From the NCBI RefSeq assembly GCF_963921235.1, contig NC_086108.1, positions 68,636,001 through 68,700,000 of the forward strand: DNA of 64,000 bases. The letters run 5' to 3'. The stretch's first letter is position 1, and every line of letters starts with the position of its first letter. Of this stretch, positions 2,890 through 62,689 are shown piece by piece. Source of the DNA: Mobula hypostoma. Its lineage: Eukaryota. A program made the position numbers and the translations under genes. The notes under the pieces were generated by a model that saw nothing but the letters and a program-made list of their open reading frames with translations, was not told the DNA's origin and made no database searches.

Positions 2890-3519
2890 TACGATTTGTT
2901 TACAAAATAACCTTTATTTCTATCAAATGCAAACACATAACTTTAACTGCCTTACACAAAAAAAGCTTGAACGAACACAGATCAGCGGCGAGCTTCTATG
3001 TACAGTGCAAGTATACAAACATTGCGCTACTGACTTGCTGTAGCTTTTCCTAAATACAATTATAAACGCATCTAACTTCCCGAACGTTTGCTATTTACAC
3101 ATCTTCGATCGTCTACTTGAAACAGCCTCAAAATAAGCCCCGACTCAAATCTACAATATATTTACTTCGCACCTTAAGTACGACGTAGAACGTCTGACCG
3201 CTGTTCCATTAGAATATGAATTTTCTACATATTACATTAATAATTTAGGATTATTTCTGTTGTGTTTAGACATTACACTTGAGAATCTAAGTACACAATA
3301 ATCAAAGTAACTCCGTGATTATGGCTATGAATTACAATACCAGCGAAATATACTGTTATTACAAAATTGCACATTAGCACATTATCGTACAATGTTTATT
3401 GACTAAATGTTTAACTCCTCGCGTGCATGTTTTAAAAAATAGCAAAACAGGCACGAGGCAATTCCTAACATTCCACCAGTGCTTTGTGGCAGTTTTGAGA
3501 TGCTTTAGAGTTTTGCAAC
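2890..3519 (-). other. Probable DMRTA2 3' UTR with two candidate poly(A) signals
   Basis: AATAAA on the minus strand at 3400-3395 and 2918-2913. Pumilio element TGTACATA at 3004-2997. The end point is inferred. Confidence 0.5.
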
Positions 3520-4391
3520 TTACTGTTTATCCGGGTTATTATTTACAACTGATCCGTAAAGTCCATTAGTATACACTTGATCTTTGTGTAAATTGGACCT
3601 GTCTCGCATGAGGTCGCTGAAGGCATAATCCATGGGTGGACGAAAGCCCAGTGTTGGGACAAGACCCGTCGTAGAATAAGGCGTCATGAAAGCAAGTCCC
3701 CTGCTATGGGTTGAATACGCTAAGCGAAGAGGGTTGAGTCCTAGATGTGGCCCAATGGCATAGGTATTGGGATCTGCAGTAAAATGGGCCGCATTCGGTT
3801 GGAGTGGGGAGAAAGCAGATCTGTTGCCTAGAGTCCCAATGGCAGGAGGCACGGTCCCAGCTACCAGGGGTCTATGCGATGTAGGTCCTTGAACAGTCTG
3901 GTGCGTCCTTTCTCGGTGCCAAGTTTCTTCCGTAATCTTTTCTTGTTCTCTATTGTTCAGGATCTGTTCAATAGCTTGGACAACGTCCCCTCCACAGCCC
4001 TGGAGGACCAGCTCGAGAACGCTTCTTTTGTGCGAAGGGAAGACCCTGGTGAGAATTTCTATGGGAGTCCTTTGGCGGGCAGCTGTGGACGGGGTCCCGT
4101 CTCTCTCGTCCTTGTCTGCCTCTGACCCAGATTCAGAACCCAGCGGCGTGATGGTCCTTGGACTATCTTCTCCTTCCTTTAGAACTTTACAGATAGGGGA
4201 ACTAAGGAAAGATTCTCCATCTCCGTTCTCAGACCCAGATCCGTGACGAACATCTGGGGACGAGGTCCCGGGGACACTACCAGTACCCGATTCGCTGTCT
4301 CCGACCATCGGCTTCGCCAAGGACTGTTGCGGAGTAACAGCTCTCGGCATTAAACTTTTTTGAAATAACTCATACTTCTGGAGTTTCGTTT
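3520..4391 (-). CDS. DMRTA2: DMRTA2 coding exon 2, DMA domain and conserved C-terminal motif
   Basis: AG acceptor (TTTGCAG|AA) at 4393-4392 joins in frame to give [21 protein letters not shown] domain [39 protein letters not shown]-terminal [35 protein letters not shown]. Spliced CDS 1296 nt = 431 aa plus stop; intron 4392-5733. Confidence 0.96.
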
Positions 4392-5733
4392 CTGCAAATC
4401 AAGTTTAAAATGTATTAAACTGTTGCTATCCGATGCTATTTTTATTCTCTAAAGGATCCCTCATCTAATATAATTACCAACATAAATGCGGAAAGTTTAA
4501 AACAAATGAGATTTTGGAAACTCGTTCAGTTACTTACAGCGCGCGTTTTTTGATAGCTAACAATTAGTTACCATAAAGGTGTTTACAACCAAGCATGCTC
4601 TTGTCAGAATCCCGAAGCTAAATAAGACCACATATTAACAGATGATCGGAACTGGAAACCTCTTCTCAGATTAGAGATTGGGTTTACTAAACGCAGTAGT
4701 TATAATGCTGTAGAAATGTTTTTCTTTTACTTCATAATTGCGTCTAATTAAATAAAAACATTCTTAGTAAAAAAAATAAACCGATTTCAGGGGCGACTAC
4801 GACCACAAAGGGTCAACGAAAACAAATGATTTAACATGTAACTTAATGAGAAAGCAAAACCACAGTGGCGATGTTTCAGGGTTACATCAACTGTTGTACA
4901 AAGTATTTGTGAATGAATCATTTCTCGTTATATGTAAAATAATTACAAATTTTACAAAATTGCCTTCGTAAAATTATTTCATAATGTTCATTTACTTAGA
5001 TGGCCGTGGCATACGCTGACACTAAAGCAAAGGTCATTTATGTCTGGGTCCTTTCGTATGAGGTGGCACTAATGTTTTCTTCTTTTACACAATTTGTATA
5101 CTGACGATTATGAAACCGTTATATGCGAAATCTCAAAAACAATTTAATGTTCACTTTGCATTTGGGTAAACAAAAATCAACAAAGTAGATGTGTTCTAGG
5201 TTGCGCCAAATTTCCACGTAAGAAGAAAAGCGTTTTTAATTATCTTGGGTTGGAGATTTAAAATCCAAAAGAGATTAATTGTTTATTAATTATTACATCA
5301 AATTGAATAACATCTGAGGCCTAAGTAACTCCACTGAGTATTAGTGGTGAGGCAGGCCAGGGCAACACCAGTTCGAAACTTCTCTCGTAAATACTTCCCG
5401 GGTGGTGATTTGCTTTTAACAGGTTTTCACTGTCGATCTGTAAATCTGATTCTCAGAAACTAATATTAATCATACTTAAACTTAATGTATACTCACTTAA
5501 ACATAAATTCTATTTAGATGCTACGGTGTTACTCTAAAATGAACGATTTTTTTGTGATGGAGAACCTTTTACAAACGCGGGTTTTTGACCCAGCTGCTCA
5601 TTTTGCACATAAAGTTAACAAACACTTCGGTTTGGGGTGGGGGTGGGGAGCATGAGGAGCTACCGTAGGAATCATGACCGCAACTACGGTTTAAATCAGA
5701 AGTTTCTAAAAGTTTTGAAAGATCAGATTGTAC

Positions 5734-6157
5734 CTGCGTTACCATCGGAGCAGACAGAACCGAACACGTCGTAAGAAGATCGCGATGGCATCATACCGTT
5801 GGCAGCTGCAAGAGCCAATCCTTCCGCCGTCCCGTACAGAAGTTGTAGCTCCCGAGCTTCGTTCTCCTCCTGTGCCTGCTGCCTTCTCAGGGCCACCTGG
5901 GCCGCCATCACCCTCTGTCTCTCTGCGATCAGGGTGCACTTGGCACACATGCAATCCTTCCAGCGACAGTAACGTTTGTGGCCCTTTAAAGCCGAGACGA
6001 CCCCGTGGTTCCTACACCGGGCGCACTTGGGAGTCCTGGGGTACTTCTCGGTGGCGCGTAGGAGCAAAGGCGGAGCGCGAAGGAGCGTGCCCGCCACCGA
6101 GACAGGTATCGCTGTCTGAGTCGTCGGGGTGCTGGAAAGCTCCGTACGCAATTCCAT
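5734..6157 (-). CDS. DMRTA2: DMRTA2 (DMRT5) coding exon 1, DM DNA-binding domain
   Basis: The ORF reads MELRTELSS...[93 protein letters not shown]: a DM domain with DMRTA2-type flanks. GT donor (GCAG|GTACAA) at 5733-5732. Length 424 nt, phase 1. Confidence 0.97.
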
Positions 6158-6309
6158 TATTTTAGAATTGATGCCGCTGATTTTAAAATGATGCCTGAAA
6201 ATTTCACCCTGAAAGTAGTTAGTAAAAACTCCGTTGGAAATAGTTGAGATTGTAAGTATTAATGCACAGGCAGAATAGGAGAAGACTCTAAGAGCAGTGT
6301 GAGGAGGTG

Positions 6310-6485
6310 GCGATTCTATATATTACATTAGCATTAATGCTCCTCGTTACAGGGGTTGAATGAACCCAGTTCCGCGCTCTCTCTATTGTTGCTCGTTACG
6401 TTTTCATTAGAGTGAAATTGACAACATGTGGCTCCTGCGATTGGCCGAATGGCACGCGGCTGAAAGCACACTTCTGATTGGTTAT
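6310..6485 (-). promoter_or_regulatory. Candidate DMRTA2 proximal promoter
   Basis: On the minus strand: TATATAGA at 6322-6315 and CCAAT boxes at 6444-6440 and 6481-6477, 160-320 nt upstream of the ATG. An upstream non-coding exon is not excluded, since TTTCAG acceptor-like sites lie near 6195 and 6209. Confidence 0.5.
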
Positions 6486-33500: not shown

Positions 33501-34330
33501 TTCAACTCTCTTCAGCATTTATAGGTTTATGAATTTTAGTTACCTGAATACACACAAGAATACTGGCACAATATGACAAAACAATGAATGAGAATAAAAA
33601 TCACAACTTCCAACAAGTACATACCTTTTTGTCTGTATATGATAGAAGATTGATTAGAAATTTGTAATGAAACTTGAGGGCCAGGAGTTGTGGATATTTT
33701 CAACAGAATATTTTTGCTAGGTCGTATCAATGATTCACTCAAGTAGCTAATTATACTCCATAATAATGTAGTACAGTATGTTATTACATTTCATGTAAAT
33801 CCCAGTGCCCTGGTGAGTACCCATTCCTAATTTCTTCTTTTTCTGTAGAGAGTAGCAGAATTAATGCTATATGATCTCTGTAATTTCAACATACTGGACT
33901 TTCAGCACCTGTAAATTTTCACTCTTTAGATATTTGCATCTCATTGACTGTTCAAATATTATAATCTGGAATTACTTCATTTTCATAAATCCATACTAGG
34001 ACAATCTTTGTATTTGTCAACAGGGGCCTAAACATGGTTGCAGGATTTGCATTCATTCCTATGTGGTGTAGAGCCTTGAAAATGAGGAATTAACAATTTA
34101 TATGATATATCATATAAATGCCACCCCTCTCTGGATAAAACTTAATTAAAAAGATAGTTAATTTAAAAGCAAATAAATTTCAGTACCAGATCTGCCAATA
34201 AATACTGAAGTGATAACATACATGTTAACTCCAGGCATTCAGCCTTTTGGTTACTGATGTAGCTGTCATGTTAACATCGTAGCAACAACGCCTGACTCGG
34301 CAGTTTCTTTAATCCCAACACATTTTATAG

Positions 34331-34467
34331 GTTAGTCCTGACGAAGGGTCTCGGCCTGAAACGTCGACTGCGCCTCTTCCTATAGATGCTGCTTGGCCTG
34401 CTGCGTTCACCAGCAACTTTGATGTATGTTGCTTGAATTTCCAGCATCTGCAGAATTCCTGTTGTTT
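34331..34467 (+). mobile_element. 137-bp Penelope-like terminal-repeat insertion with 11-bp TSD
   Basis: ACATTTTATAG at 34320-34330 and 34468-34478. The body is nearly identical to the reverse complement of 44743-44878. Confidence 0.9.
34333..34370 (+). ncRNA. Minimal type I hammerhead ribozyme motif
   Basis: UAGUC-CUGACGA-AGG(GUCUCGG)CCU-GAAAC-GUC^GACUG. All core nucleotides are present. Stem I 5 bp, stem II 3 bp, helix III reduced to the palindrome ACGU. Predicted cut after 34365. Confidence 0.8.
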
Positions 34468-34744
34468 ACATTTTATAGCTGCTTTGCTTAGAAGGAATTT
34501 TGATGATATATATTCTTGTTCTCAAAAGGCATCATCTCTTTGTTATTAAACATTATGTGTCACCTACCAACCATTTTCCTTGATTGGTCTCCACATTCTC
34601 TCATGAGTTATTTATTTCTCAGTTTTTGGTATCATCTGCAAACATTCCAATGAGGGCACCAAATTATACCTGATGTTATATTTACTTATACAACATATTG
34701 AAGGTTTGTAGCCATGACTCTTTGATATTTATTTCACAATTAAA

Positions 34745-35356: not shown

Positions 35357-36873
35357 AAGTTGCAAGAAAAAGTTTGTGAACCCTTTGCAATTACCTGTTT
35401 TTCTGTATTAATTGCTTATAATCCTCATCGGAATCAAGATAATAGACAAACAGAATCTACCTATACTAATAACACACTAATAATTGTACTTTTCATGTCT
35501 TTATTGAACACATTGTTTAATCATTCACAGTACAGGCTGGAAAAAGTATGTGAACCCTTGTATTTAAGAACTGGTAGAACCTCCTTTAGCAGCAATAACC
35601 TCCACCAAATGTTTCCTGTAGTTGCTGATCAGACTTGCACAACAGTGAGGACGACTTTTAGGCCATTCCTCCATACAAAACTGTTTCCGTTCCATCAATA
35701 TTTCTGGGATACTTTACATCAATAACCCTTTTCAGGTCATGCCACAGCATCACAATTTGATTAAGGTCTGGACTCTGACTTGGCCATTCCAAAACAACAT
35801 TTTTCTTCTTTTTAAACCATTCTGTTGATGATTTACTCCTGTGTTTCAGGTCATTGTCTTATTGCATCAACTTCTATTAAGCTTCAGGTGATGGACCACA
35901 ACCCTGATATTCTCCTGTAAAATGTCTTGATGCAACTTTGAATTCATTGTTCCCTTAATGATTGTAAGCCATTGAGGCCATGAGGCAGCAAAGCAGCCCC
36001 AAACCATGATGCTCTTTCACCATGCTTCACAGTGGGATAAGGTTTTGGTGTTGATGTGCAGTGCCCTTTTCCCTCCAAACACAGCAGTGCGCATTTCTGC
36101 CGAAAAGGTCAACTTTTGTCTCTTCTGTCCACAGAACATTGCCCCAGAAGTGTTGTGGAACATCCAGGTGGTCTTTTGTAAACTTGAGCCGTGCAGCAAT
36201 TTTTTTTTTGAGACCAGTAGTTTCCTCCATGAACACCATTCGTGTTCAGTGTTTTTTCTTAAAGTGGACACATTAAACAGAGACTTTAGCAAGTGCTAGA
36301 AGATTTCTGCAGGTCTTTTGCTGTAATCCTTGGGTTCTTTTTCACTTCCTTCAGCATTGCATGTTATGTTCTTGGTGTGATGTTGCAAGAGTCCACTCCT
36401 AGGGAGAGTAGCAACAGTATTAATTACTGTGGACTGATGAACACTAAGGCCTTTAGAAATGCTTTTGCAGCCTTTTCCAGCTTTATGCATCACTACAATT
36501 CTTTTTCTAAGGTCTTCTGAAAGTTGTTTTGATCGAAGCATGGGGTGCACATTAACAGATCTTTCTTGAGAAGAGCAGGCTCCATCAGTAATCTAACTTT
36601 GTGTGCCTTTTTTATAGGGTAGGGCACCTCTACAGTCCACACCTCCAATCTCATCTCATTGACTGCAACACATGACTTCAAACAGCTTTTGTAGAAGGCA
36701 TTATCCCAGAGGTACACCTACTTTTTTGAACCTGACTGTGATTGCTTAAATTGTTTGTGTGTTATTAGTTTAGGCAGATTGTGTTTGCTTATTAACGTGA
36801 TGTAGTTGAAGATCAGACCAAATTTTATGAGTATCCAATGCAGAAAACAGGTTCACAACTTTCTTTGCATCTG
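35357..36873 (-). mobile_element. Tc1-family IR/DR-type DNA transposon with a decayed transposase
   Basis: TA at 35355-56 and 36874-75. TIR (C)AGTTGCAAGAAAAAGTTTGTGAACC with an inner direct repeat at about 35534-35557. Frameshifted transposase pieces RSKQLSEDLRKRIVVMHKAGKGCKSISK and ARLKFTKDHLDVPQHFWGNVLWTEETKVDLFG. Confidence 0.92.
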
Positions 36874-39651: not shown

Positions 39652-39735
39652 TCATTCCTTTGCTTCCAGGAAGAGAGTTTCCTGAGGATAGAGTTTCACC
39701 TCCAGCAATGTTTCAGTTGGGTCAAACAGAGATAC
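39652..39735 (-). CDS. FAF1: FAF1 (Fas-associated factor 1) last coding exon, end of UBX domain
   Basis: Acceptor TCTATTTTTCAACAG, then VSLFDPTETLLEVKLYPQETLFLEAKE*, matching the recalled FAF1 C-terminus (LLEVKLFPQETLFLEAKE). Fits the known FAF1-DMRTA2 synteny. Confidence 0.93.
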   Translation of the reverse strand, partial: VSLFDPTETLLEVKLYPQETLFLEAKE

Positions 39736-44090: not shown

Positions 44091-44742
44091 ATAACCTACC
44101 TAGCCATCTGTTCTAAGTAATGAGTTAAATTAAGGTGAGTTCATTTATATTAGTGTTTACTACTTTACGAATAAAGACCTTGCTCACACAGAAAGAAGTC
44201 AAAAGAATCTACAATAAAGGCACAGAAAATGTCACACACTGATGAGCATACTGAACTAGCAAGTTGTTCCATATGAAACTACTGACCAGCTGTTAGTATC
44301 ATCCAGTTCATTGTTTAAAGAAAAATAATCTGACAGAGGATTCTTTTCATACTGTACTTAAAATTGTTAGGTGTTTTTGTGAATAGATCTTCTGAAACAT
44401 TTACTTTCTGGACCTGTTAAACTTTGATTTAATTAACTTCCTCTCTTCATTTTTTTCATTCTGTAATGTGTTATGTGCAGGCACCATATTGGTATTCTAT
44501 ACTACAAGTGGCGTAAAATATCGATGAATATAAATATCGAAAAAGCTTATATTCCATTTTATTGGTTGCTAGAATATGATAAAAGTATGGCTTGTTTTCA
44601 CTTGACCACAGCTAAGAGTATTTATGTAAATAAAATTAAGTCATGACAAATATATGCATCAATCTACTAGACTCAGTACAGTTGTCATCAAAACCCTCAC
44701 AAAAAAGAAGTCACATCTTGAAAAACAGTATGTGCCAAGACA

Positions 44743-45731
44743 AACAACAGGAATTCTGCAGATGCTGGAAATTCAAGCAACACACATCAAAGTTGCTGGT
44801 GAACGCAGCAGGCCAGGCGGCATCTCTAGGAAGAGGTACAGTCGAAGTTTCAGGCCGAGACCCCTGGTCAGGACTAACTGAAGGAAGAGTGAGTAAGAGA
44901 TTTGAAAGTAGGAGGGGGAGGGGGAGATCCAAAATGATAGGAGAAGACAGGAGGGGGAGGGATAGAGCCAAGAGCTGGACAGGTGATTGGCAAAAGGGAT
45001 ACGAGAGGATCATGGGACAGGAGGTCCGGGAAGAAAGACGGGGGTGGGGGGGAACCCAGAGGATGGGCAAGGGGTATATTCAGAGGGACAGAGGGAGAAA
45101 AAGGAGAGTGAGAGAAAGAACATGTGCATAAAAATAAATAACAGATGGGGTACGAGGGGGAGGTGGGGCATTAGCGGAAGTTAGAGAAGTCGATGTTCAT
45201 GCCATCAGGTTGGAGGCTACCCAGACGGAATATAAGGTGTTGTTCCTCCAACCTGAGTGTGGCTTCATCTTTGCAGTAGAGGAGGCCGTGGATAGACATG
45301 TCAGAATGGGAATGGGATGTGGAATTAAAATGTGCAGCCACTGGGAGATCCTGCTTTCTCTGGTGGACAGAGCGTAGGTGTTCAGCAAAGCCGTCTCCCA
45401 GTCTGCGTCGGGTCTCGCCAATATATAAAAGGCCACATCGGGAGCACCAGACGCAGTATATCACCCCAGCCGACTCACCTGGAAGGACTCTTTGGGGCCC
45501 TGAATGGTGGTAAGGGAGGAAGTGTAAAGGCATGTGTAGCACTTGTTCTGCTTACACGGATAAGTGCCAGGAGGGAGATCAGTGGAGAGGGATGGGGGGG
45601 ACGAATGGACAAGGGAGACGCGTAGGGAGTGATCCCTGCGGAAAGCGGGGGGGGGAGGGTAAGATGTGCTTAGTGGTGGGATCCCGTTGGAAGTGGCGGA
45701 AGTTACGGAGAATAATATATTGGAACCGGAG
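44743..45731 (-). mobile_element. 5'-truncated Penelope-like retroelement (GIY-YIG endonuclease plus terminal repeat) with 9-bp TSD
   Basis: ORF SAGVIYCVWCSRCGLLYIGETRRRLGDGFAEHLRSV...HFNSTSHSHSDM...EQHLIFRLGSLQPDGMN. GCCAAGACA at 44734-44742 and 45732-45740. Confidence 0.92.
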
Positions 45732-55748: not shown

Positions 55749-56766
55749 TTCCAGATGGTAGTGGTCATGGATCTGGAAAGTGCTGCCTTAGGTGTTGTTG
55801 CACAGCATCTTGTAGATAGTACACACTGCTGCAACTGTTCGTCGCTGGTGGAGGGACTGGATGCTTGTGGAAGGGCTATCAATCAAGTGGGCTGCCTTGT
55901 AGTGGATGGTGTCAAACTTCTTGAGTGTTGATGGAGCTGCACTCATTCAGGCGAGTATTCCATTACATTCCTGACCTGAGCCTTGTAGATGCTGGACAGG
56001 CTTTGGGGAGTCAGGAGGTGAGTTACACACCACAGAATTCATAGTCTTTGACCTGCTCTGGTAGTCATGGTGGTTATATAGCTAGACCAGTTCAGTTTTC
56101 TGTCAATGGTAACCCCCAGGATGTTGATAGTAGGGGATTCAGTGATGTTGACCTCTGAATATCAAGGGACGATGGTTAGAGCCTCTCTTGTTGGAGATGG
56201 TCATTGCCTGGCACTTGCATGGCTTGAATGTTACTGGTCTCTTGACAGTCCAAGCCTGGATATTGTCCAGGTCCTGCTGCATTTGGGTATGAACTGTTTC
56301 ACTATCTGAGGAGTCACGAATAGTGCAGAACATTGTGCAGTCATCTGCGAGCATCCCCACTTCTGACCTTATGATTGGAAGGAAGGTCATTGATGAATCA
56401 GCTGAAGATGGTTGGTCCTAGGACACTTCCCTGAGGAACTCCTGCAGTGATGTCCTGAGGATGAGGTGATGGACCTCCAACCATCACAAACATCTTCCTT
56501 TGTATCAGATATGATTCCAACCAGCAGAGGGGTTTCCCCCTAATTCCCATTGACTCCATTTTAGCAATTGCACCTTGATTCCATACTTGGTCAAATGCTG
56601 CCTTGATGTCGAGGGCTATCACTTTCACCTCACCTCTGGTATTTGGTCCATGTTTCGACCAAGGAGGTGATGAGGTCAGGAGCTGAATGGCCTTGACAGA
56701 ACCCAGACTGGGCATCCGTAAGCAGGTTACTGCCAAGTAGGTGCTGTATGATAGCATTGTTGATGA

Positions 56767-56968
56767 TGAAGAAGAAGAGAAAAAGGATAGCCCTTAACTT
56801 GGCAGTGGAGTTATCGGGGCAACGTCATGACGGTGTTTCCATAGCAAGCTATTCTTGTTTATACGAGGCCAAGTTGCTAGCTCAATGCTCAACCCAACTT
56901 GGATTCAAACTCGGGAACCTTCGCTCCAGAGTCTGGCGCTGATATTATTGCACCACCAAGCGGAACTA
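56767..56968 (-). mobile_element. tRNA-head SINE nested in the LINE, with 11-bp TSD
   Basis: A-box-like TGGTGCAAT, B-box-like GAGTTTGAATCC and a (CTT)n tail. ATTGTTGATGA at 56756-66 and 56969-79. Confidence 0.85.
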
Positions 56969-58508: not shown

Positions 58509-61500
58509 TCACTGTGCCACGCGACAGTGAGAGTAGGAATGCAATGAGGTGGAGGATAAATGTGTGACTGAGGGATTGGAGTAGGGGGCAGGGATTCAAG
58601 TTTTTGGATTATTGGGACCTCTTTTGGGGCAGGTATGACCTGTTCAAAAAGGACGGGTTACACTTGAATCCTAGGGGGACCAATATCCTGGCGGGGATAT
58701 TAGCGAGGGCTACTGCGGTGACTTTAAACTAGAATGGTTGGAGGGTGGGAATCAAATTAAAGAGACTAGGAGAGAGGAGGTTAATTCACAAAAGGGGGAT
58801 GGGAACAAGTGCAGAGAGACAGAGGGGTGTAAAATGAGGGTAGAAGCAAAAAGTAGTAAGGTGAAAAGTAAAAGTGGCAGGCCGGCAAATCCAGGGCAAA
58901 AATCAAAAAGGGCCACTTTTCAACATAATTGTATAAGGGCTAAGAGTGTTGTAAAAGTGAGACTGAAGGCTTTGTGTGTCAATGCAAGAAGCATTTGTAA
59001 CAAGGTGGATGAATTAGAGGTGCAGATTGTTATTAATGAATATGATATAGTTGGGATCACAGAGACATGGCTCCAGGGTGACCGGGGATGGGAGCTCAAC
59101 ATTCAGGGATATTCAATATTCAGCAGGGATAGACATGAGAGAAAAGGAGGTGGGGTAGCATTGCTGGTTAGAGAGGAGATTAACACAATAAAAAGGAAGG
59201 ACATTAGCCGGGAGGATGTGGAATCGATATGGGTAGAGCTGCATAACACTAAGGGGCAGAAAACGCTTGTGGGAGTTGTGTACAGGCCACCTAACAGTAG
59301 TAGTGAGGTTGGGGATGGTATTAAACAGGAAATTAGAAATGTGTGCAATAAAGGAACAGCAGTTATAATGGGTGACTTCAATCTACATATAGATTGGGTG
59401 AACCAAATTGCTAAGGGTGCTGAGGAAGAGGATTTCTTGGAATGTATGCGGGATGGTTTTTTGAACCAACATGTCGAGGAACCAACTAGAGAGCAGGCTA
59501 TTCTAGACTGGGTATTGAGCAATGAAGAACGGTTAATTAGCAATCTTGTGGTGAGAGGCCCCTTGGGTAAGAGTGACCATAATATGGTGGAATTCTTTAT
59601 TAAGATGGAGAGTGACATAGTTAGTTCAGAAACAAAGGTTCTGAACTTAAAGGAGGGTAACTTTGAAGGTATGAGACGTGAATTAGCTAAGATAGACTGG
59701 CAAATGACACTTAAAGGGTTGATGGTGGATATGCAATGGCAAGCATTTAAAGATCGCATGGATGAACTACAACAATTGTTTATCCCAGTTTGGGAAAAGA
59801 ATAAATCAAGGAAGGTAGTGCACCCGTGGCTGACAAAGGAAATTAGGGATAGCATCAATTCCAAAGAAGCATACAAATTAGCCAGAGAAAGTGGCTCACC
59901 TGAGGACTGGGAGAAAATCAGAGTTCAGCAGAGGAGGACAAAGGGCTTAATTAGGAAGGGGAAAAAAGGTTATGAGAGAAAACTGGCAGGGAACATAAAA
60001 ACTGACTGTAAAAGCTTTTATAGATATGTGAAAAGAAAAAGATTGGTAAGACAAATGTAGGTCCCCTACGGACAGAAACAGGTGAATTGATTATGGGGAA
60101 CAAGGACATGGCAGACCAATTGAATAACTACTTTGGTCCTGTCTTCACTAAGGAGGACATAAATAATCTTCTGGAAATAGTAGGGGACAGAGGGTCCAGT
60201 GAGATGGAGGAACTGAGGGAAATACATGTTAGTAGGGAAGTGGTGTTAGGTAAATTGAAGGGATTAAAGGCAGATAAATCCCTAGGGCCAGATGGTCCAG
60301 AGTGCTTAAGGAAGTAGCCCAAGAAATAGTGGATGCATTAGTGATAATTTTTCAAAACTCTTTAGATTCTGGACTAGTTCCTGAGGATTGGAGGGTGGCT
60401 AATGTAACCCCACTTTTTAAAAAAGGAGGGAGAGAGAAACCAGGGAATTATAGACCGGTTAGCCTAACATTGGTGGTGGGGAAAATGCTAGAGTCAGTTA
60501 TCAAAGATGTGATAACAGCACATCTGGAAAGCGGTGAAATCATCGGACAAAGTCAAAGTTGTGAAAGAAAAATCATGCCTGATGAATCTCATAGAATTTT
60601 TTGAGGATGTAACTAGTAGAGTGGATAGGGGAGAACCAGTGGATGTGGTATATTTGGATTTTCAAAAGGCTTTTGACAAGGTCCCACACAGGAGATTAGT
60701 GTGCAAACTTAAAGCACACGGTATTGGGGGTATGGTATTGATGTGGATAGAGAATTGGTTGGCAGACAGGAAGCAAAGAGTGGGAATAAATGGGACCTTT
60801 TCAGAATGGCAGGCAGTGACTAGTGGGGTACCGCAAGGCTCAGTGCTGGGACCCCAGTTGTTTACAATATATATTAATGACTTAGATGAGGGAATTAAAT
60901 GCAGCATCTCCAAGTTTGCAGATGACACGAAGCTGGGTGGCAGTGTTAGCTGTGAGGAGGATGCTAAGAGGAAGCAAGGTGACTTGGATAGGTTAGGTGA
61001 GTGGGCAAATTCATGGCAGATGCAACTTAATGTGGATAAATGTGAGGTTATCCACTTTGGTGGCAAAAACAGGAAAACAGATTATTATCTGAATGGTGGC
61101 CAATTAGGAAAAGGGGAGGTGCAACGAGACCTGGGTGTCACTATACACCAGTCATTGAAAGTGGGCATGTAGGTACAGCAGGCGGTGAAAAAGGCGAATG
61201 GTATGCTGGCATTCATAGCAAGAGGATTCCAGTACAAGAGCAGCGAGGTACTACTGCAGTTGTACAAGGCCTTGGTGAGACCACACATGGAGTATTGTGT
61301 GCAGTTTTAGTCTCCTAATCTGAGGAAAGACATCCTTGCCATAGAGGGAGTACAAAGAAGGTTCACCAGATTGATTCCTGGGATGGCAGGACTTTCATCT
61401 GATGAAAGACTGGATTGACTAGGCTTATACTCGTTGGAATTTAGAAATTGAGGGGGGATCTTATTGAAATATATAAAATCCAAAAGGGATTGGACAGGCT

Positions 61501-61846: not shown

Positions 61847-62612
61847 TATTAATCCCTGGGGAAATTGGTTTTTGTTACAGTTGCTCCATAAATAATAAAT
61901 AGTAATAGAACCATAAATAGTTAAATAGTAATATGTAAATTATGTCAGTAAATTATGAAATAAGTCCAGGACCAGCCTATTGGCTCAGGATGTCTGACCC
62001 TCCGAGGGAGGAGTTGTAAAGTTTGTTGGCCACAGGCAGGAATGACTTCCTATGACGCTCAGTGTTGCACCTCGGTGGAATGTGTCTCCGACTGAATGTA
62101 CTCCTGTGCCCACCCAGTAGTATGTAGTGGATGGGAGACATTGACTAAGATGGCAAGCAACTTAGACAGCATCCTCCTTTCAGACACCACCGTGAGAGAG
62201 TCCAGTTCCATCCCTACAAAATCACTGGCCAATTTGTATCCCCAGGTATTTGTAATCCTCCACCATGTCCACACTGACCCCCTGGATGGAAACAGGGGTC
62301 ACCGGTACCTTAGCTCTCCTCAGGTCTACCACCAGCTCTTTAGTCTTTTTCACATTAAGCTGCAGATAATTCTGCTCACACCATGTGACAAAGTTTCCTA
62401 CCGTAGCCCTGTACTCAGCCTCATCTCCCTTGCTGATGCATCCAACTATGGCAGAGTCATCCGAAAACTTCTGAAGATGACAACACTCCGTGCAGTAGTT
62501 GAAGTCCGAGGTGTAAAAGGTGAAGAGAAAGGGAGACAAGACAGTCCCCTGTGGAGCCCCAGTGCACTCTGTTGGACACACAGTGTTGCAAGCACACGTA
62601 CTGTGGTCTGCC
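61847..62612 (-). mobile_element. Rex1/Babar LINE RT and 3' fragment, tail-to-tail with the CR1
   Basis: TGAPQGTVLSPFLFTFYTSDF...LQKFSDDSAIVGCI...LQLNVKKTKELVVDLRR. Confidence 0.9.
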
Positions 62613-62689
62613 AGTTTTGTACGGTCAATAAGGCTGGTTTTCCCATTGATATTTCCAGTGCCTAGGTTCATTCCTTATTATTTTCTTTT

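What the first reader, a model, noticed from the sequence alone, without database searches (positions are those of the whole stretch)
34320..34478. Young 137-bp insertion that is essentially a complete minimal hammerhead ribozyme plus tail
Seen: a perfect 11-bp TSD brackets a unit starting just before stem I of UAGUC-CUGACGA-AGG/CCU-GAAAC-GUC^GACUG. Every catalytic-core base is intact and the CpGs are undecayed. Known: Penelope-like elements carry minimal type I hammerheads that lack a real helix III and are thought to cleave as dimers via the palindromic ACGU. Inference: this may be an independently mobilised ribozyme-bearing mini-element rather than a random truncation, and it places a potential self-cleavage site between FAF1 and DMRTA2.
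Basis: partly seen in the sequence, partly recalled or inferred. Interest (0 to 1): 0.75.

Follow-up and report, generated by a model that had tools for sequence, protein, structure and literature searches.

The report
Penelope stub starting at hammerhead edge
This 137-base insert is a recent, short copy of the end of a very abundant Penelope-like jumping gene, not a mobile element of its own, and it faces the wrong way to cut the RNA of the neighbouring genes; such stubs pile up at the front edge of the predicted ribozyme, likely because the copying enzyme runs off the start of an uncut RNA there.

Summary
In detail: 137 bp, a perfect 11-bp TSD, an intact minimal hammerhead core, and an empty site in two related organisms. 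The unit is 137/137 identical to the end of a 2.8-kb RT + GIY-YIG Penelope-like copy, and 32,574 exact copies of its first 33 bases exist. It is not an independent mini-element: short and long copies share haplotypes, and only 815 of 32,574 share its boundary. Truncation is not random either. 62 of 183 copies end at -12..+11, simple ends there are about 10-15 times denser than on either side, and the highest count is at +5; 1 of 183 has a simple end at the cut site. Likely mechanism: internal priming at the tail and run-off at the 5' end of an uncleaved RNA (inferred, about 0.6). The motif is antisense to both flanking genes, is predicted to misfold as a monomer, and has G·U for the conserved G10.1-C11.1 pair. 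The scan noted this pattern before, in this and other genomes. Ordinary locus; a modestly interesting family-level clue.

The parts
34320..34330 (.). Left target-site duplication, 11 bp
   Evidence: single copy at the empty site in two related organisms
34331..34467 (+). 137-bp Penelope-like stub (+1..+137): hammerhead, tail stem-loop and tail; the stretch is both the end of the pLTR and the 5' leader before the ORF
   Evidence: 137/137 identical to the end of L111; in L146 it continues into the ORF and recurs 3,510 bp later
34334..34337 (+). Hammerhead stem I, 5' strand (+4..+7); family 5' junctions are most frequent here among the six positions counted (+5)
34338..34345 (+). Catalytic core CUGACGA plus the extra A between positions 9 and 10.1
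   Evidence: sequence; consensus feature in PMC4209133
34346..34357 (+). Stem II, 4 bp, with G·U in place of G10.1-C11.1
   Evidence: T at +27 in 83 of 91 copies
34358..34365 (+). GAAA, palindromic ACGU (no intramolecular helix III) and GUC triplet; predicted cut after 34365
   Evidence: sequence; cleavage not tested
34366..34369 (+). Hammerhead stem I, 3' strand
34398..34430 (+). Tail stem-loop region up to the short 3' end near +100 (one likely RT start site)
   Evidence: 9,393 copies diverge by +105/+106; 3' ends at +100..+104 in nearly all inspected; hairpin z -1.92 for 34396-34467
34431..34467 (+). 37-nt PLE tail up to the long 3' end near +137 (second likely RT start site)
   Evidence: 28,798 exact tail 40-mers; 3' ends of 92 copies peak at +137
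34468..34478 (.). Right target-site duplication, 11 bp
44741..45731 (-). Second, longer copy of the same family in the window (about 1 kb, GIY-YIG remnant plus pLTR and tail; hammerhead core mutated)
39652..39735 (-).
3523..6322 (-). Context: DMRTA2/DMRT5 coding exons (DM, DMA and DMB domains), about 28 kb from the insertion

Best explanation
The insert is a recent short copy of a very abundant Neptune-type Penelope-like element, likely made when the element's enzyme began copying inside the tail of its own RNA and ran off the 5' end of an uncut transcript that is predicted to start at the front edge of the hammerhead. Shown: it is identical to the end of long RT + GIY-YIG copies; the family has two 3' ends (about +100 and +137); TSDs are 8-17 bp; the site is empty in relatives; 5' ends cluster at -12..+11 and not at the cut site; short copies have no private haplotype; the motif is antisense to both neighbours. 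From the literature: PLE reverse transcription starts internally at two sites that bound the tail and uses mostly uncleaved RNA (PMC11167929), and the promoter lies in the pLTR (PMC2377424, PMC8557442). Inferred: a transcript from a pLTR-ORF-pLTR locus carries the priming site twice. Priming at the upstream copy can give only 100-150 nt of cDNA before the RNA ends, which yields stubs like this one and short fold-backs. Priming at the downstream copy gives the long, scattered truncations. The RNA end is most likely the transcription start, though a trimmed end would look the same. At this locus the ribozyme is likely a silent passenger.
For: Identity 137/137 to L111, whose frame has YIDD, a Cys linker and a GIY-YIG-like motif. 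L146 shows the partial tandem, with +137 running into the ORF. 62 of 183 tail-anchored copies end at -12..+11 (32 simple, 25 with TSD >=8 bp). Simple ends per base at risk: 0.013 there, 0.0009 at -120..-13, 0.0014 at +12..+74. The interval was chosen on the first 92 copies and replicated in 91 others (17 simple ends, p 3e-8). Genome-wide junction counts: +5 2,002 (15 of 30 simple), +1 815 (12 of 30), -11 283 (10 of 30), -22 192 (12 of 30), -104 150 (3 of 30), +36 693 (5 of 30). 1 of 183 has a simple end at +34..+40, matching the report that uncleaved RNA is the template. Inverted insertions pair a tailed arm with a tail-less arm (33 of 37 and 29 of 29). 43 of 560 windows further upstream in L111 fold as strongly as the hotspot or more, and the long copies' ends are scattered. 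Initiator-like pyrimidine-A steps lie at -12, -1 and +4 (sequence; consensus recalled).
Against: No RNA 5' end was measured; only assembled contigs were available. The edge is not sharp: junctions at -22 are still several times commoner than at -104. A cap-derived extra G was not found (4 of 12 untemplated additions end in G, p 0.2). The hotspot coincides with a predicted hairpin at -12..+19 (-9.9 kcal/mol) and with stem I complementarity, which can explain many inversion junctions without an RNA end. In D. virilis Penelope the start lies 46 nt before a 75-nt intron that ends at helix I, so it is not at the hammerhead edge; the sequence upstream of +1 and +5 here also looks like a splice acceptor. 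Denominators were measured only for +1, and the mismatch filters differ between positions, so the genome-wide ratios are rough. All 183 copies come from the first 31 Mb of one contig.
Confidence: 0.6

Rival explanations
1. Structure-induced stop: the enzyme copies a long read-through RNA from the downstream pLTR and stalls or folds its cDNA back at the -12..+19 hairpin or at stem I, so the cluster marks a barrier, not an RNA end.
For: With native upstream sequence the -12..+19 hairpin has pairing probability about 0.9 and spans the hotspot, while the upstream 300 nt are almost unstructured. Inversion junctions often join +3..+8 to +36..+43, the two stem I strands. The edge is soft.
Against: 62 of the 145 copies that reach +11 end within the next 23 nt, a large loss for a -10 kcal/mol hairpin, while similar or stronger hairpins in the tail and ORF show no such peak. 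The highest count (+5) falls in the loop rather than in the first stem half met by the enzyme (pausing rule recalled).
Confidence: 0.25
2. Splice-related end: the poly-pyrimidine tract, the branch-point-like TACTCAC (-17..-11) and the AG dinucleotides ending at +1 and +5 form a 3' splice site; bound splicing factors or processed RNA fix the 5' ends.
For: Counts are high at G+5 and G+1, the last bases of the two AGs. In D. virilis Penelope an intron ends at helix I, and an intron in the 5' UTR is also reported for Chlamys.
Against: No shared upstream exon sequence sits between TSD and element: 33 junctions were blunt, microhomologous or had unrelated additions. No splice-type joint into +2 or +6 was among the 15 joints shown of 255 (weak, contigs only).
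Confidence: 0.08
3. Independent non-autonomous ribozyme mini-element with its own master copies.
For: Thousands of TSD-flanked copies of about 100-150 bp exist (extrapolated). Non-LTR retrozymes derive from pLTRs (bioRxiv 10.64898/2026.07.22.740005).
Against: No private haplotype; identity to a long coding copy; ragged 5' ends over about 23 nt with both 3' ends used. Ends are not at the cut site as a self-cleaved unit would require. A monomer, not a tandem array; 1 of the 30 +1 copies inspected held a partial direct tandem.
Confidence: 0.04
4. Plain random 5' truncation that happened to spare the hammerhead.
For: PLE insertions are usually 5'-truncated, and the family is huge, so every boundary occurs.
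Against: Simple ends are about 10-15 times denser at -12..+11 than in the flanking intervals, in two separate samples.
Confidence: 0.03

Closest known systems
Endonuclease-positive Penelope-like elements, Neptune/Nematis type (PMC8557442, passages read)
   Same: Single ORF with RT and C-terminal GIY-YIG, Cys-rich linker, partial tandem pLTR, adjacent inverted truncated arms, optional 30-40-nt tail, hammerhead in the pLTR
   Different: The passages read describe 5' truncation but no cluster of 5' ends at stem I. Clade placement here rests on the linker motif, not on a tree.
Minimal type I hammerheads of metazoan PLEs (Cervera and de la Pena 2014, PMC4209133; parts 1-2 of 4 read)
   Same: 4-5-bp helix I, extra nucleotide between 9 and 10.1, palindromic 15.2-16.2, no helix III, mostly single motifs from truncated PLEs; the tested monomer was inactive and dimers were weak
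   Different: Helix II is 4 bp here, and G10.1-C11.1 is G·U in most copies. The parts read name no cartilaginous fish.
Poseidon PAc of Anolis carolinensis (Frangieh et al. 2024, PMC11167929; parts 1-2 of 4 read)
   Same: Two internal RT start sites bounding the tail, both target strands cut and extended, uncleaved RNA as template, hammerhead needs the protein
   Different: In PAc the ORF starts inside the hammerhead; here the first in-frame ATG is at +173. The parts read do not describe run-off stubs or map the transcript start.
Non-LTR retrozymes (bioRxiv 10.64898/2026.07.22.740005; parts 1-3 of 5 read)
   Same: pLTR-derived, non-coding, type I hammerhead
   Different: Defined as tandem arrays with at least two complete motifs; this is a single TSD-flanked copy with PLE tail ends.

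Membership tests
EN+ Penelope-like element (parent family) | [quoted passage not shown] | tested here: met
   L111 frame of 547 aa: RVT_1 E 1.7e-5 and GIY-YIG E 4.3e-4, both just under the Pfam cut-offs; YIDD and LLYIGET motifs seen
EN+ Penelope-like element (parent family) | Partial tandem forming a pLTR | tested here: met
   L146: unit repeats after 3,510 bp
EN+ Penelope-like element (parent family) | Optional 30-40-nt tail and inverted 5'-truncated arms | tested here: met
   3' ends near +100 and +137; 33 of 37 and 29 of 29 inverted pairs combine the two ends
Neptune/Nematis clades | Zn-finger-like Cys motif between RT and EN | tested here: met
   CKRNKCYTC before the EN domain in L111 and L146; definition
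Neptune clade | Phylogenetic placement of the RT | not tested
   No reference PLE RT sequences were on hand; no tree built
Minimal type I hammerhead | Core CUGANGA, GAAA, NUH with helices I and II and a palindrome in place of helix III | tested here: met
Minimal type I hammerhead | G10.1-C11.1 pair | tested here: not met
   G·U at this pair; T27 in 83 of 91 copies. A conserved but not obligatory feature in PMC4209133.
Minimal type I hammerhead | Self-cleavage as a dimer or with protein | not testable with these tools
   Nearest-neighbour energies put the active-like dimer at -11.1 against -23.8 kcal/mol for two monomers; tertiary contacts are not modelled
Independent non-autonomous element (SINE-like) | Fixed 5' end and private diagnostic variants | tested here: not met
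Non-LTR retrozyme | Tandem array of at least two complete hammerhead units | tested here: not met
   Single unit between TSDs

The most novel reading that the evidence does not exclude
About a third of this family's insertions are fossil run-off cDNAs, primed at the upstream copy of the tail and ended at the transcript's start beside stem I. The genome would then record the PLE transcription start and show that the uncut leader RNA, not a ribozyme-cleaved or circular RNA, is a main template in the germ line. Such starts would also be the only RNA form predicted to form stem I, since upstream sequence is predicted to block it.
Probability: 0.45. Interest if true: 0.5.

Novelty: new member of a known kind. 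Interest (0 to 1): 0.3.

Why it matters
The locus itself matters little: it is one of tens of thousands of near-identical copies, intergenic and antisense to its neighbours, useful at most as a presence/absence marker between close relatives. The family-level pattern bears on an open question, how Penelope-like elements are copied and what their hammerheads do. Ends that cluster before the ribozyme and avoid its cut site support, from genomic data, the in vitro result that uncleaved RNA is the template, and predict a transcript start that 5' RACE can test. Seven paper searches listed no paper describing this cluster, but the library lacks most subscription papers and Repbase/Dfam entries.

Tried and rejected
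The DNA similarity search of the own genome returned nothing because common words are skipped; pattern counts were used instead. Rfam gave no hammerhead match. Cap-derived G at junctions: 4 of 12, not significant. The upstream hairpin as a selected on/off switch: 114 of 200 shuffles of -60..-1 abolish stem I as well, so it is generic poly-pyrimidine pairing. The stem II and core-mispairing columns used wrong pair indices and were redone. A hard upstream edge at -12 was not shown. Expression: no RNA holder was listed on record; runs guessed to be RNA hold the flanks and the element, but contigs cannot show strand, start or level, so depth steps were not used. Splicing into +2 or +6: none among the 15 joints shown of 255. 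Presence/absence within the window's own species: no listed contig of X1 or X5 bridges the site, so it remains open. A UBX motif scan of the window and 100 kb beside it found nothing because an intron splits the motif; the family search found the exon. The text supplements of PMC11167929 held none of four terms, and its Fig. S2 (genomic coverage of PAc) could not be seen; it may bear on whether the 5' cluster is already visible in print. The preprint's supplements were not seen. A sequence look-up in earlier findings gave nothing.

Full report
Coordinates: +1 is window 34331, the first base of the unit.

1. The observation. The unit 34331-34467 lies between two identical 11-mers, far beyond chance. 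Contigs from two related organisms pass from 34319 directly to 34468, with flanks about 1.6% (20 of 1,242) and 2.3% (25 of 1,073) diverged (table 8). This confirms both the TSD and the youth of the insertion. The hammerhead boxes are as described, with the predicted cut after 34365. The pair that Cervera and de la Pena list as highly conserved G10.1-C11.1 is G·U here and in 83 of 91 family copies. Two older copies in the window have C at that place, so the change is likely a CpG-type transition fixed in the source lineage (inference). As a monomer the core is predicted to mispair into a rod (probability 0.66 alone, 0.9 with its own flank); the open-core fold costs 5.1 kcal/mol.

2. What it is. 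The genome (3.48 Gb) holds 28,512 exact copies of the first 39 bases, 32,574 of the first 33 and 28,798 of a tail 40-mer. All of the first 30 copies continue upstream of +1 or join an inverted arm. The unit is 137/137 identical to the end of L111, a copy of about 2.8 kb encoding RT, a Cys linker and a GIY-YIG domain (both Pfam hits just under cut-off). L146 is a nearly complete partial tandem: the stretch after +137 runs into the ORF (first in-frame ATG at +173) and the hammerhead recurs 3,510 bp later. The 137 bp are therefore both the end of the pLTR and the leader of the next unit. The family has two 3' ends, near +100 and +137, the 30-40-nt PLE tail, which Frangieh et al. equate with two internal RT start sites. 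TSDs are 8-17 bp with a mode of 13-14, one outlier at 24. Inverted insertions pair one tailed and one tail-less arm (33 of 37; 29 of 29). That such repeats are typical of ray and shark genomes is recalled, not tested.

3. Are 5' ends random? I mapped 92 long-tail copies (the first 30 loci, plus anchors in 60 regions fetched around the next listed hits; the last few of the 100 listed were not fetched) and 91 short-tail copies (30 loci, plus 61 in 60 fetched regions), all from the first 31 Mb of contig C1. An inverted insertion can appear once in each sample; simple ends cannot. 62 of 183 end at -12..+11: 32 simple, 28 inverted, 2 other. Simple ends per base at risk are 0.013 there, 0.0009 at -120..-13, 0.0014 at +12..+74 and 0.0002 at -300..-121. 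The interval was chosen after seeing the first sample and held in the second (17 simple ends, p 3e-8 against upstream). Genome-wide patterns requiring two non-consensus bases before a given position gave: +5 2,002 (15 of 30 inspected simple at +5, two of them one duplicated locus), +1 815 (12 of 30 simple, 17 inversions, 1 longer), -11 283 (10 of 30; stricter filter), -22 192 (12 of 30), -104 150 (3 of 30), +36 693 (5 of 30 simple, 17 inversions). Only +1 has a measured denominator and the filters differ, so these ratios are rough. Still, of the six positions counted the highest is +5, not the window's own +1; the cut site is not favoured (1 simple end at +34..+40 in 183); and the upstream edge is soft.

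4. Is it an independent element? At four variable sites, 31 short simple copies and 60 long copies show the same haplotype mix (p 0.62-1.0), and the window's haplotype occurs in 6 of 31 and 10 of 60 (one further short copy was dropped by the identity filter). Short copies are thus made by the same source lineages as long ones. Roughly 1% of copies with the first 33 bases are simple insertions at this exact boundary (815 x 12/30 of 32,574; extrapolated).

5. Mechanism. A transcript from a pLTR-ORF-pLTR locus contains the tail priming site twice. PLE promoters lie in the pLTR, RT starts internally, and uncleaved RNA is the main template in vitro. Priming at the upstream site can only yield 100-150 nt before the RNA ends; that predicts stubs and short fold-backs bounded just upstream of the hammerhead, as seen. 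This step is inferred. Against it: no RNA end was measured, no cap-G excess was seen (4 of 12), and D. virilis starts about 120 nt upstream of helix I with an intron between. A hairpin at -12..+19 overlaps the hotspot, but it is generic poly-pyrimidine pairing (114 of 200 shuffles), and 43 of 560 windows further upstream fold as strongly. A splice-acceptor reading fits the AGs at +1 and +5 but lacks a shared upstream exon. I put run-off at an RNA 5' end at 0.6, a structural stop at 0.25, splicing at 0.08, an independent element at 0.04 and random truncation at 0.03.

6. Effect on host genes. DMRTA2-type exons lie on the minus strand at 3523-6322. The UBX-domain gene also lies on the minus strand, with a UBX exon just right of the window and its last coding exon at 39652-39735. 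The insertion is 5,174 bp past that stop, beyond four AATAAA sites on the gene's strand, with two more within 260 bp of the insertion. The hammerhead reads on the plus strand, so transcripts of either gene would carry its complement, which cannot cleave. The tested PLE minimal motifs were inactive as monomers or needed protein, and 8 of 9 Xenopus retrozyme dimers did not cleave.

7. Known and new. Structure, tail, inversions and minimal hammerhead are all described (PMC4209133 parts 1-2 of 4; PMC11167929 parts 1-2 of 4; bioRxiv 10.64898/2026.07.22.740005 parts 1-3 of 5; PMC2377424, PMC8557442 and PMC8969392 passages). Seven searches listed no paper on a cluster of 5' ends at stem I; Fig. S2 of PMC11167929 could not be seen. 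Earlier AI notes of this scan report the same cluster and similar readings in this and other genomes (474 findings hold the search words). My reading was recorded before I saw them, and they are not counted as support. Verdict: real and young, an ordinary member of a known kind; interest 0.3.

Noticed in passing
window 44741-45731 (-): A second, about 1-kb copy of the same family, 93-95% identical, with a GIY-YIG remnant and mutated hammerhead core; older, 72-76% identical relatives lie at about 20373, 23485, 23908, 24382, 38351 and 43955.
   Followed up: partly
L069 and L081: Two copies with different downstream flanks share the same 5' end (-792) and the same inverted arm boundary (-2615), which suggests a rearranged source copy that was itself propagated.
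   Followed up: no
L149 oriented 3100-3780: Short direct tandem: a pLTR running 200 nt into the ORF start is joined to a second pLTR of another haplotype, a possible template switch between two RNAs.
   Followed up: no
L050 near 1440-1530: Direct partial tandem of the hammerhead (+1..+56 followed by a full unit), the arrangement that could allow a dimeric ribozyme.
   Followed up: no
L146 (G000:C1:7979200-7986200, minus): Nearly full-length young PLE in partial tandem, with frameshifts in the ORF; 2 of 92 long-tail copies continue into the ORF start.
   Followed up: partly
window 58675-61172 (+), 56401-56793 (-), 62225-62674 (-), 36299-36592 (-): LINE endonuclease and RT remnants, including a 461-aa open frame, and a Tc1/Sleeping Beauty-type HTH remnant about 1.8 kb from the insertion.
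   Followed up: no
window 34398-34424 and 34479-34505: The flank right after the 3' TSD is 70% alike to a 27-nt stretch of the element's tail hairpin; probably chance.
   Followed up: no
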